From: Escherichia coli
GTDB taxonomy: Bacteria > Pseudomonadota > Gammaproteobacteria > Enterobacterales > Enterobacteriaceae
Strand: one strand, 5' to 3'
NCBI RefSeq assembly: GCF_003334355.1
Contig: NZ_QOWP01000004.1
DNA length: 64,000 nucleotides
The position numbers and the translations under genes were made by a program. A model generated the notes under the pieces. The model saw nothing but the letters and a program-made list of their open reading frames with translations, was not told the DNA's origin and ran no database searches. Below, piece by piece: positions 2,126 to 2,301 of the stretch. Within the stretch, counting starts at the first letter, position 1; each line of letters begins with the position of its first letter.

Positions 2126-2224
2126 ATGCGAATCGGTATTATTTTTCCGGTTGTAATCTTCATTACAGCGGTCGTATTTTTAGCATGGTTTTTTATTGGC
2201 GGCTATGCTGCCCCGGGAGCATAA
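2126..2224 (+). CDS. yoaK: Small membrane protein YoaK (32 aa)
   Basis: ATG 2126 to taa 2222-2224 translates to MRIGIIFPVVIFITAVVFLAWFFIGGYAAPGA, a single TM helix; below the ORF-track length cutoff; recognised as the known small protein. Confidence 0.7.
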   Translation: MRIGIIFPVVIFITAVVFLAWFFIGGYAAPGA

Positions 2225-2226
2225 AG

Positions 2227-2301
2227 ATGAAAAAAACAACGATTATTATGATGGGTGTGGCGATTATTGTCGTACTCGGCACTGAGCTGGGATGGTGGTA
2301 A
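2227..2301 (+). CDS. yoaJ: Small membrane protein YoaJ (24 aa)
   Basis: ATG 2227 to taa 2299-2301 translates to MKKTTIIMMGVAIIVVLGTELGWW; starts 2 nt after the yoaK stop. Confidence 0.7.
   Translation: MKKTTIIMMGVAIIVVLGTELGWW

What the first reader, a model, noticed from the sequence alone, without database searches (positions are those of the whole stretch)
2126..2301. Two tandem tiny membrane-protein genes (yoaK, yoaJ) missed by length-thresholded ORF calling
Between dgcP and yeaQ there are two back-to-back ORFs of 32 and 24 codons separated by 2 nt. Each encodes a single hydrophobic helix (MRIGIIFPVVIFITAVVFLAWFFIGGYAAPGA and MKKTTIIMMGVAIIVVLGTELGWW) and they are followed by a hairpin terminator at 2311-2345. 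They are absent from the six-frame track because of its size cutoff. Their function is not known to me.
Basis: partly seen in the sequence, partly recalled or inferred. Interest (0 to 1): 0.3.

Follow-up and report, generated by a model that had tools for sequence, protein, structure and literature searches.

The report
Known small membrane genes yoaK-yoaJ
These are the already annotated E. coli genes yoaK and yoaJ, two tiny single-helix inner-membrane proteins encoded at the tail of the dgcP operon; they are real and conserved but not new, although relatives of YoaK also sit directly behind the repressor gene of many temperate phages.

Summary
ATG 2126 to TAA 2224 encodes 32 aa and ATG 2227 to TAA 2301 encodes 24 aa, 2 nt apart, followed by a hairpin at 2321-2346.

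RefSeq annotates both genes (yoaK, yoaJ) in nearly all of 5,426 complete E. coli genomes. Both pass curated NCBIfam cut-offs. Papers report tagged YoaK protein, experimentally confirmed YoaJ topology, RseP cleavage and a yeaP-yoaK-yoaJ operon.

My cross-species test gives strong purifying selection: dN/dS is 0.05 for yoaK and 0.16 for yoaJ, with third-position variation. The stop-start junction stays tight (+2 to -4 nt), yoaJ switches between ATG and GTG starts, and the terminator hairpin shows compensatory changes.

So this is an already known pair whose function is still unknown.

Two points go beyond the finding. Chromosomal yoaK is almost always directly 3' of a diguanylate cyclase gene. 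Solo YoaK-family ORFs lie 12-172 nt behind CI-type repressor genes in many prophages and in phages HK106, mEp234 and mEp506, where they are unannotated. They sit ahead of variable toxin-antitoxin or defence-like cargo and are also under purifying selection.

In this strain dgcP carries a 1-nt frameshift.

The parts
1069..2093 (+). dgcP (yeaP), a GAF-GGDEF diguanylate cyclase and first gene of the operon. In this strain it is a pseudogene: one G is lost from a GGG run at about 1609-1611, giving a premature stop at 1642-1644.
   Evidence: RefSeq record identical to the window flags it as 'frameshifted'. Split ORFs 940-1644 and 1686-2093. Alignment with intact ATCC 8739 dgcP.
2117..2122 (+). Shine-Dalgarno-like GGTGAT, 4 nt before the yoaK ATG.
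   Evidence: Sequence. A GGTGA/GGTGG motif is kept at this position in most of 30 species.
2126..2224 (+). yoaK, a 32-aa single-pass small inner-membrane protein.
   Evidence: NF033821, 69.1 bits; dN/dS 0.05; helix 3-24.
2215..2219 (+). Shine-Dalgarno-like GGGAG for yoaJ, embedded in the last codons (P-G-A) of yoaK, 7 nt before the yoaJ ATG.
   Evidence: Sequence. CCGGGAGC/CCGGGGGC is conserved in all 30 species.
2227..2301 (+). yoaJ, a 24-aa single-pass (N-in/C-out) small inner-membrane protein. It starts 2 nt after the yoaK stop, so translational coupling is likely.
   Evidence: NF011343, 60.4 bits; dN/dS 0.16; junction +2/0/-1 nt; ATG/GTG start switching; topology, membrane integration.
2312..2355 (.). 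Bidirectional intrinsic-terminator hairpin shared by yoaKJ and the convergent yeaQ: A-run 2312-2317, stem 2321-2330 / 2337-2346, T-rich tail 2347-2355.
   Evidence: about -20 kcal/mol on both strands; conserved in 18 species, with double compensatory changes at 4 of 11 pairs.
2360..2608 (-). yeaQ (GlsB/YeaQ/YmgE family membrane protein), the convergent neighbour. It is not part of the operon and was used as the anchor for the cross-species comparison.

Best explanation
The two ORFs are the known genes yoaK and yoaJ. They are the distal genes of the dgcP-yoaK-yoaJ transcription unit.

How they are expressed. yoaK has its own Shine-Dalgarno site. The yoaJ ribosome-binding site lies inside the last codons of yoaK, and its start codon is 2 nt after the yoaK stop. 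In other genera the spacing is 0 nt, or the genes overlap by 1-4 nt. YoaJ synthesis is therefore most likely coupled to YoaK translation. This step is inferred. Transcription ends at a hairpin shared with the convergent yeaQ.

What the products are. Each product is one transmembrane helix in the inner membrane. YoaJ is N-in/C-out, which has been shown experimentally. YoaK is probably the same, inferred from R2 and the positive-inside rule, with a short conserved periplasmic tail (GGYAxPG).

What they most likely do. By analogy with other characterised E. coli small membrane proteins, and because almost nothing of either peptide is exposed to the cytoplasm, they most likely bind and modulate a larger inner-membrane protein, possibly as a parallel YoaK/YoaJ pair. 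They would be made together with the cyclase DgcP and cleared by the intramembrane protease RseP.

Confidence by layer. That these are real, translated, selected small membrane proteins in this operon: about 0.95. That they act as a membrane-protein modulator: about 0.4. That they have a specific functional tie to c-di-GMP signalling: about 0.25.
For: Identity:
- Identical RefSeq annotation, and the region is present in 5,418-5,419 of 5,426 complete E. coli genomes.
- NCBIfam equivalog hits above the curated cut-offs.

Coding:
- Of 80 yeaQ-anchored loci from different species, 30 carry both ORFs intact, in tandem and in the same orientation (Escherichia, Citrobacter, Salmonella, Enterobacter, Leclercia).
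- Pooled Nei-Gojobori dN/dS is 0.05 for yoaK and 0.16 for yoaJ at near-saturated dS.
- Variable columns by codon position are 13/7/30 of 31 for yoaK and 14/9/21 of 23 for yoaJ.

Coupling:
- The junction is always between +2 and -4 nt.
- The yoaJ start switches between ATG and GTG in 7 species.

Operon:
- dgcP lies directly upstream in 28 of 30 loci.
- The same holds in further loci where yeaQ is not a neighbour (L167/L168, L084, L087, L140-L166).
- An RNA-seq-based yeaP-yoaK-yoaJ operon is reported in PMC4620388.

Protein evidence:
- Chromosomally tagged YoaK is detected on immunoblots, and its discovery is credited to Hemm et al. 2008 (bioRxiv 10.1101/511675).
- yoaK is quantified in ribosome profiling (PMC4666370).
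- YoaJ is membrane-integral and type II, and it co-precipitates with RseP (PMC4597795).
- YoaJ and YoaK are cleaved by purified RseP (PMC10470546).

Structure and terminator:
- AlphaFold2 gives one helix, residues 3-24, at pLDDT 90. Hydropathy agrees.
- The terminator hairpin is conserved with compensatory changes.
Against: - No function, partner or phenotype is reported in the papers I could read; PMC9769844 says the function 'remains unknown'.
- RseP cleavage is assay-dependent (class II: negative with chromosomal RseP).
- Coupling and co-transcription were not measured here.
- The plus-strand U-tract after the hairpin is weak in E. coli.
- In this particular strain the dgcP frameshift leaves about 480 nt untranslated before yoaK. 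That could reduce yoaKJ expression through polarity. No independent consensus promoter was found.
- Salmonella arizonae and C. sedlakii keep yoaKJ without dgcP, and phages carry yoaK alone. Any dependence on DgcP is therefore not obligatory.
Confidence: 0.85

Rival explanations
1. YoaK (with YoaJ in enterobacterial chromosomes) is a dedicated accessory of c-di-GMP signalling modules. It is encoded with diguanylate cyclases because it acts on the same membrane-located output, or localises the signal.
For: Chromosomal yoaK is directly 3' of a GGDEF gene in 28 of 30 yeaQ-anchored loci. The same is true in L084, L167/L168, L087 and L140-L166. A diverged YoaK follows a cyclase of different architecture, MASE5-GGDEF, in L169, with a second convergent GGDEF gene. 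L093 has a GGDEF gene divergently adjacent.
Against: DgcP is a soluble GAF-GGDEF protein, and YoaK exposes only about 2 residues to the cytoplasm, so direct contact is unlikely. dgcP is lost but yoaKJ kept in S. arizonae and C. sedlakii. Phage copies have no cyclase nearby. Much of the linkage could be inherited synteny of a single module.
Confidence: 0.25
2. YoaK is in origin or in function a temperate-phage 'moron' peptide. It would be made in lysogens together with the repressor and act on a host inner-membrane target, for example in superinfection exclusion or in control of adjacent defence or toxin cargo. The chromosomal copy would be a domesticated relative.
For: Solo YoaK-family ORFs score 55-74 bits on NF033821 against a cut-off of 32. 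They lie 12-172 nt downstream of, and on the same strand as, CI-type repressor genes in 40 of 52 true phage loci from IMG/VR. The same is seen in phages HK106, mEp234 and mEp506, in a Klebsiella phage and in prophages L082, L083 and L170. dN/dS is 0.06-0.12. The downstream cargo varies and includes HicAB, a HipA-like kinase and PADLOC-matching proteins. In HK106 no terminator-like site lies between cI and the hairpin just before PL.
Against: The window copy is in core chromosome, not in a prophage, and is present in essentially all E. coli. No experiment links any YoaK to phage resistance. PHROGs and PADLOC have no family for it. The direction of transfer cannot be resolved with 32 residues.
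Confidence: 0.2
3. They are type-I-toxin-like hydrophobic peptides (like Hok, Ldr, Ibs or TisB) that damage the membrane when made.
For: Small size and a single hydrophobic helix. RseP, which detoxifies HokB, can also cleave them in vitro. Phage copies sit next to toxin-antitoxin genes.
Against: No antitoxin RNA family or any Rfam hit in 800-3600. The only antisense promoter-like site (2273-2245) is a 9/12 match, and the scan found fewer sites than shuffles give. There is a single copy per genome. Tagged proteins accumulate in growing cells. The genes are transcribed with a housekeeping-expressed cyclase.
Confidence: 0.04
4. The ORFs are fortuitous, or the region works at the RNA level (a 3' UTR, an sRNA or a regulatory leader) rather than through the peptides.
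For: Very short ORFs arise often by chance. The region ends in a strong hairpin, as many 3'-UTR sRNAs do.
Against: Third-position-dominated variation and dN/dS of 0.05 and 0.16 across five genera. Both frames are intact in 30 of 30 loci that have the region, apart from one start-proximal frameshift in L013. No Rfam match. Protein has been detected.
Confidence: 0.02

Closest known systems
YoaK family small membrane protein (NCBIfam NF033821; Pfam PF28021 in the precomputed annotations)
   Same: Full-length match at 69.1 bits. 32 aa, with invariant M1, P8, A15, W21, F22, Y27 and A28 in my 16-sequence family alignment. The position 3' of dgcP is as in other enterobacteria.
   Different: Nothing. 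It is the type member. The copy of Pfam-A behind profile_search does not yet contain the family.
Protein YoaJ (NCBIfam NF011343 / PRK14760)
   Same: Full-length match at 60.4 bits. 24 aa, with an N-terminal KK/RK and a C-terminal GWW. Always immediately after yoaK.
   Different: Nothing for the window copy. The family is narrower than YoaK: it was found only with chromosomal, dgcP-linked yoaK and never in phage loci. The Salmonella orthologue falls below the curated cut-off (36.9 bits against 54).
Characterised E. coli small inner-membrane regulators (e.g. MgrB on PhoQ, YoaI on EnvZ; review PMC12648545). AcrZ-AcrB, MgtS-MgtA, CydX and KdpF are cited from my own knowledge.
   Same: Size class, a single transmembrane helix, encoded at the end of or beside a larger gene, and discovered by the same 2008 survey.
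   Different: No partner protein or phenotype is known for YoaK or YoaJ. There is no sequence relationship. Two such peptides in tandem with a conserved coupled junction is less common.
Lambda cI-rexA-rexB arrangement and other immunity-region 'morons' (own knowledge; compare HK106 annotation)
   Same: Phage YoaK-like ORFs occupy the slot directly 3' of the repressor, on its strand, between PRM/cI and PL, ahead of accessory toxin or defence cargo.
   Different: This applies to the phage relatives, not to the window locus. Rex proteins are much larger and unrelated. No exclusion phenotype has been shown for YoaK.
Type I toxins (Hok, Ldr, Ibs, TisB)
   Same: Short hydrophobic single-helix peptides. 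RseP can cleave both kinds.
   Different: No antisense RNA, no multicopy paralogues and no reported toxicity. The genes are operonic with an enzyme gene.

Membership tests
YoaK family (NF033821) | HMM score at or above the curated cut-off (32 bits) over the full length | tested here: met
   69.1 bits, residues 1-32 on profile positions 1-32
YoaK family (NF033821) | About 32 aa with a single transmembrane helix | tested here: met
   32 codons; GRAVY 1.88; AlphaFold2 helix 3-24 at pLDDT 90
YoaK family (NF033821) | Translated and located in the inner membrane | not testable with these tools
   From the literature only. Tagged YoaK was detected. It is treated as a single-spanning small membrane protein and cleaved by RseP in vitro.
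Protein YoaJ (NF011343) | HMM score at or above the curated cut-off (54 bits) over the full length | tested here: met
   60.4 bits, residues 1-24 on profile positions 1-24
Protein YoaJ (NF011343) | Type II (N-in/C-out) integral membrane peptide | not testable with these tools
   Literature: topology confirmed experimentally, alkali-resistant membrane association (PMC4597795). The sequence is consistent, with K2 and K3 at the N-terminus.
Protein-coding gene under selection | dN/dS well below 1 with codon-position periodicity across species | tested here: met
   yoaK 0.05 and yoaJ 0.16. Variable columns by codon position are 13/7/30 and 14/9/21. This is a pairwise pooled estimate, not a tree-based one.
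Translationally coupled gene pair | Stop and start within a few nucleotides or overlapping, with the downstream ribosome-binding site inside the upstream ORF, conserved across species | tested here: met
   +2, 0, -1 and -4 nt junctions. GGGAG/GGGGG lies inside the yoaK 3' end in all species. Functional coupling itself was not tested.
Rho-independent terminator for yoaKJ | GC-rich hairpin followed by a U-tract on the transcribed strand | tested here: inconclusive
   The hairpin is present and conserved with covariation. The scan's T-run criterion is met only on the minus strand in E. coli. Enterobacter orthologues have T5-7 on the plus strand.
Type I toxin-antitoxin | Cis- or trans-encoded antisense RNA and toxicity on expression | tested here: inconclusive
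   No Rfam hit and no above-chance antisense promoter, but absence of a hit does not rule out an unknown antisense RNA. Toxicity is not testable here.
Known phage or defence protein families (PHROGs, PADLOC) | Significant profile match | tested here: not met
   No PHROG with E below 0.07 for YoaK, YoaJ or seven diverged YoaK relatives. Only the downstream cargo proteins were run against PADLOC; YoaK and YoaJ themselves were not.

The most novel reading that the evidence does not exclude
YoaK-family peptides are a conserved, lysogen-expressed part of temperate-phage immunity regions. They are co-transcribed with the CI-type repressor and sit just ahead of interchangeable toxin-antitoxin or defence cargo. 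They act on a host inner-membrane target, for example by blocking superinfection or by gating the neighbouring cargo. The core-genome dgcP-yoaK-yoaJ copy would be the chromosomal counterpart of the same peptide, tied to c-di-GMP signalling. The phage ORF is unannotated in the GenBank records of HK106, mEp234 and mEp506. I found no paper that discusses it.
Probability: 0.25. Interest if true: 0.55.

Novelty: already known. Interest (0 to 1): 0.17.

Why it matters
For the finding as given, it matters little. It rediscovers two annotated E. coli genes first reported in 2008. It is a useful check that sequence-only reading can recover sub-50-codon genes.

What remains open is their function. The comparative results here narrow the search in four ways:
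- The peptides are under strong selection.
- YoaJ is always coupled to chromosomal YoaK.
- Chromosomal YoaK travels with diguanylate cyclase genes.
- YoaK alone has been taken up, or donated, at the repressor-proximal slot of many temperate phages.

If the phage link reflects function, it would give a 32-residue peptide a testable role in lysogen biology. It would also add a missing gene to several well-studied lambdoid phage genomes.

Tried and rejected
I used the representative-library phmmer search for YoaK instead. YoaJ (24 aa) could only be traced through loci.
- Pfam-A scan of YoaK gave nothing significant. That library copy lacks PF28021, which appears in precomputed annotations.
- PDB profile search found no relative.
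- PHROGs has no family.
- Rfam found nothing in 800-3600.
- The primary papers (Hemm 2008 and 2010, Fontaine 2011, the EcoSal review, Vellappan 2025) are not held. Their content is cited only through papers that quote them.
- In one search my dgcP_N and yoaF queries were translated in the wrong frame and should be ignored. The presence of dgcP rests on three things: the in-frame GGDEF half (54-64% identity directly upstream of yoaK, against about 30% for paralogues), the full-length upstream ORFs and the Pfam calls.
- tblastn of the 'RIGIAFP' phage type against the phage collection found nothing, and its DNA is absent from E. coli.
- I had recalled that dgcP depends on sigma-S. PMC5635695 corrected this: it reports vegetative RpoD control.
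- I did not attempt a YoaK-YoaJ complex model. The tool folds single chains and reports no interface confidence, and the paired alignment would be shallow.

Full report
**What is there**

- An ATG at 2126 opens a 32-codon frame that ends at TAA 2222-2224.
- After the two bases AG, an ATG at 2227 opens a 24-codon frame that ends at TAA 2299-2301.
- GGTGAT (2117-2122) precedes the first start.
- GGGAG (2215-2219), inside the last codons of the first ORF, precedes the second start.

Upstream is dgcP, whose stop is at 2093. Downstream is the convergent yeaQ (2360-2608, minus strand).

A 10-bp GC-rich stem (2321-2330 / 2337-2346) folds at about -20 kcal/mol on either strand. The pattern scan accepts it as a terminator only on the minus strand, where it is followed by CTATTTTTT. 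On the plus strand the tail is TGCAATTTA. It is therefore a bidirectional hairpin shared with yeaQ, and its U-tract for yoaKJ is weak in E. coli.

**Identity**

The 1.7-kb stretch around the ORFs occurs once in 5,419 of 5,426 complete E. coli genomes, and the 256-nt core in 5,418. RefSeq annotates yoaK ('YoaK family small membrane protein', WP_001219350.1) and yoaJ ('protein YoaJ', WP_001386836.1) at exactly these positions.

Both peptides match curated NCBIfam equivalog models over their full length and above the cut-offs:
- NF033821: 69.1 bits against a cut-off of 32.
- NF011343: 60.4 bits against a cut-off of 54.

**What the literature I could read says**
- A 2019 preprint uses chromosomally tagged YoaK as a reference band on immunoblots. 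It credits the initial identification to Hemm et al. 2008 (10.1101/511675).
- PMC4597795 states that YoaJ is a small membrane protein of unknown function with type II topology confirmed experimentally. It also shows that YoaJ is integrally membrane-associated and co-precipitates with RseP.
- PMC10470546 classes YoaJ and YoaK as 'class II' RseP substrates. They are cleaved by purified RseP, but results in vivo are inconsistent.
- PMC4620388 shows a yeaP-yoaK-yoaJ operon from RNA-seq.
- PMC4666370 lists yoaK among genes quantified by ribosome profiling.
- PMC5635695 reports DgcP as vegetatively controlled (RpoD) and present in all growth phases.
- PMC9769844 (2022) still lists the functions of yoaK and yoaJ as unknown.
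- The primary papers of 2008-2011 are not in the library.

I anchored on the neighbouring YeaQ protein, so that the sampling would not depend on the ORFs themselves, and fetched 80 loci from different species.
- Thirty of them carry both ORFs intact, in tandem and convergent with yeaQ. They come from Escherichia, Citrobacter, Salmonella arizonae, Enterobacter, Leclercia and two metagenome-assembled genomes.
- Pooled Nei-Gojobori estimates give pS 0.65 and pN 0.07 for yoaK (dN/dS 0.05), and pS 0.60 and pN 0.17 for yoaJ (dN/dS 0.16).
- Variable alignment columns by codon position are 13/7/30 of 31 for yoaK and 14/9/21 of 23 for yoaJ.
- The junction between the genes is 2 nt in Escherichia, Citrobacter and Salmonella. 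It is 0 nt in Enterobacter and Leclercia, a 1-nt overlap in one Citrobacter, and a 4-nt overlap in three more distant loci.
- The yoaJ start alternates between ATG and GTG in seven species.
- The terminator hairpin is kept in 18 species, with both-sides compensatory changes at 4 of 11 pairs.
- No Rfam family matches the region.

These results exclude chance ORFs and a purely RNA-level element. They support translational coupling, although coupling itself was not measured.

**Structure**

YoaK has one charged residue (R2) and a 19-residue window with mean hydropathy 2.8. YoaJ has K2, K3 and E20. AlphaFold2 on a 16-sequence family alignment gives a single helix, residues 3-24, at mean pLDDT 90, followed by a non-helical GGYAAPGA tail. 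With N-in/C-out orientation almost nothing faces the cytoplasm. That orientation is shown for YoaJ and inferred for YoaK.

**Genomic associations**

dgcP lies directly upstream of yoaK in 28 of the 30 loci. The two exceptions are S. arizonae and C. sedlakii. They have lost the cyclase ORF but keep yoaKJ about 200 nt from the divergent yoaF.

The module also exists where yeaQ is not adjacent. Examples are L167/L168 (yeaO-yoaF-GAF_2-GGDEF-yoaK-yoaJ-DUF2534-leuE) and L084. The yeaQ-anchored survey therefore underestimates how widely the module is spread.

A diverged solo YoaK follows a cyclase with a different sensor domain (MASE5-GGDEF) in L169.

**An unexpected second context**

A phmmer search of 1.84 billion representative proteins found 25 YoaK relatives. 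Several lie in prophages, immediately after an S24-peptidase CI-type repressor gene and before hicAB or a hipA-like gene.

In the sequenced lambdoid phages HK106, mEp234 and mEp506 the same slot holds a 32-codon ORF, MRIGIVFPILVFIVAMGFMAWFIIDGYATPSG (L085 2501-2599).
- It lies between cI and the HicA-like toxin, inside the region bounded by PRM and PL.
- No feature is annotated there.
- No terminator-like site intervenes between cI and the hairpin just before PL.
- In a Klebsiella phage record the equivalent ORF is labelled 'CI transcriptional regulator'.

A scan of IMG/VR returned 80 loci.
- Twenty-eight of them are really host dgcP-yoaK at the edge of a provirus call.
- Of the other 52, 40 have the ORF 12-172 nt downstream of, and on the same strand as, a repressor gene that matches phrog_4 or phrog_8.
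- None has a yoaJ-like partner.

The phage ORFs score 55-74 bits on NF033821. Their dN/dS is 0.06-0.12. The genes that follow them vary. They include HicAB and proteins matching PADLOC models PD-Lambda-2_B, PDC-M66A and CapP/RmrA-like.

PGAP already names the HK106-type prophage copy 'YoaK family small membrane protein' in six E. coli genomes. Family membership is therefore recognised by annotation. I found no paper that notes the repressor-adjacent position.

**Mechanism**

What is shown, here or in the cited papers:
- Both peptides are real and selected.
- Both are membrane-inserted.
- They are transcribed with dgcP.

What is inferred:
- Translational coupling.
- N-in/C-out topology for YoaK.
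- A role as helix-binding modulators of a larger inner-membrane protein.

I rate that modulator model at about 0.4. I rate a specific c-di-GMP accessory role at about 0.25 and a phage-related membrane function for the family at about 0.2-0.25. These are not mutually exclusive. Toxin-like or non-coding explanations are unlikely.

**This strain**

dgcP here lacks one G of a GGG run near 1609-1611, so it terminates at 1644. Only five genomes in the collection are identical across the region. Expression of yoaKJ may therefore be lowered by polarity in this lineage. I did not test this.

**Verdict**

Interest is low for the finding as stated. There is a modest lead in the association of the YoaK family with phage repressors and diguanylate cyclases.

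Noticed in passing
window 1605-1644 (dgcP, 1069-2093): dgcP is a pseudogene in this strain. One G is missing from the GGG run at about 1609-1611 compared with ATCC 8739, giving a stop at 1642-1644. RefSeq flags the identical record as 'frameshifted'. Only 5 of 5,426 genomes are identical over 1000-2700. This could cause polarity on yoaKJ.
   Followed up: yes
L085 2501-2599 (phage HK106, NC_019768.1 30464-30559 minus strand); also mEp234 and mEp506: An unannotated 32-codon YoaK-family ORF lies between cI and the hicA-like toxin in the immunity region of sequenced lambdoid phages. It scores 54.9 bits on NF033821, against a cut-off of 32.
   Followed up: yes
L088-L139 (IMG/VR), L082, L083, L170: Solo YoaK-like ORFs sit 12-172 nt behind CI-type repressor genes in 40 of 52 phage loci. 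They precede variable cargo: HicAB, a HipA_2 kinase plus DUF3037, PD-Lambda-2_B-like, PDC-M66A-like, ImmA/CapP-like and ParA-like proteins. dN/dS is 0.06-0.12. No yoaJ partner is present.
   Followed up: yes
L086 2480-2599 (Klebsiella phage ST974-OXA48phi18.2, MK448237.1): The YoaK-like ORF is annotated in the record as 'CI transcriptional regulator' (39 aa). This is probably a mislabel carried over from the neighbouring repressor.
   Followed up: partly
L169 about 3037-3135; L093 2026-2124: A diverged solo YoaK follows a MASE5-GGDEF cyclase and faces a convergent dCache-GGDEF gene. In L093 a GGDEF gene is divergently adjacent. So YoaK recurs next to cyclases of different architecture.
   Followed up: partly
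L013 (Citrobacter sedlakii NBRC 105722), yoaJ start region: The A-run after the yoaJ ATG has 6 As instead of 7, and the spacer is 1 nt longer. The ATG is therefore out of frame (MKKQP*), while the downstream frame stays intact and conserved. This could be a recent frameshift, a homopolymer sequencing error or a non-canonical start. This species also lacks dgcP.
   Followed up: partly
L008 4388-4934 (Salmonella enterica subsp. arizonae): The dgcP ORF is absent, but yoaF and yoaK-yoaJ remain about 200 nt apart. So yoaKJ is kept without the cyclase.
   Followed up: partly
L172 308-1005 (E. coli F1053) and hits H6-H10: Several E. coli genomes carry an IS1 element between yoaF and dgcP, that is, in the promoter region of the dgcP-yoaKJ operon.
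   Followed up: partly
P0001, P0002, P0004, P0005, P0008, P0016, P0024: The representative protein library holds frameshifted or read-through variants of YoaK, including a 57-aa YoaK-YoaJ fusion (P0002). These are most likely assembly or base-calling errors, but this was not checked.
   Followed up: no
window 2273-2245 (minus strand): A promoter-like site (ACGACA-17-CATAAT, 9 of 12) lies antisense inside yoaJ. The scan found fewer such sites than shuffled sequence gives, so it is probably chance.
   Followed up: no
window 1726-1842 (plus strand): A 38-codon hydrophobic ORF (GRAVY 1.86) lies in an alternative frame inside dgcP. It is the only other ATG ORF of 20-40 codons in the window with GRAVY above 1.8. 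It is probably fortuitous.
   Followed up: no
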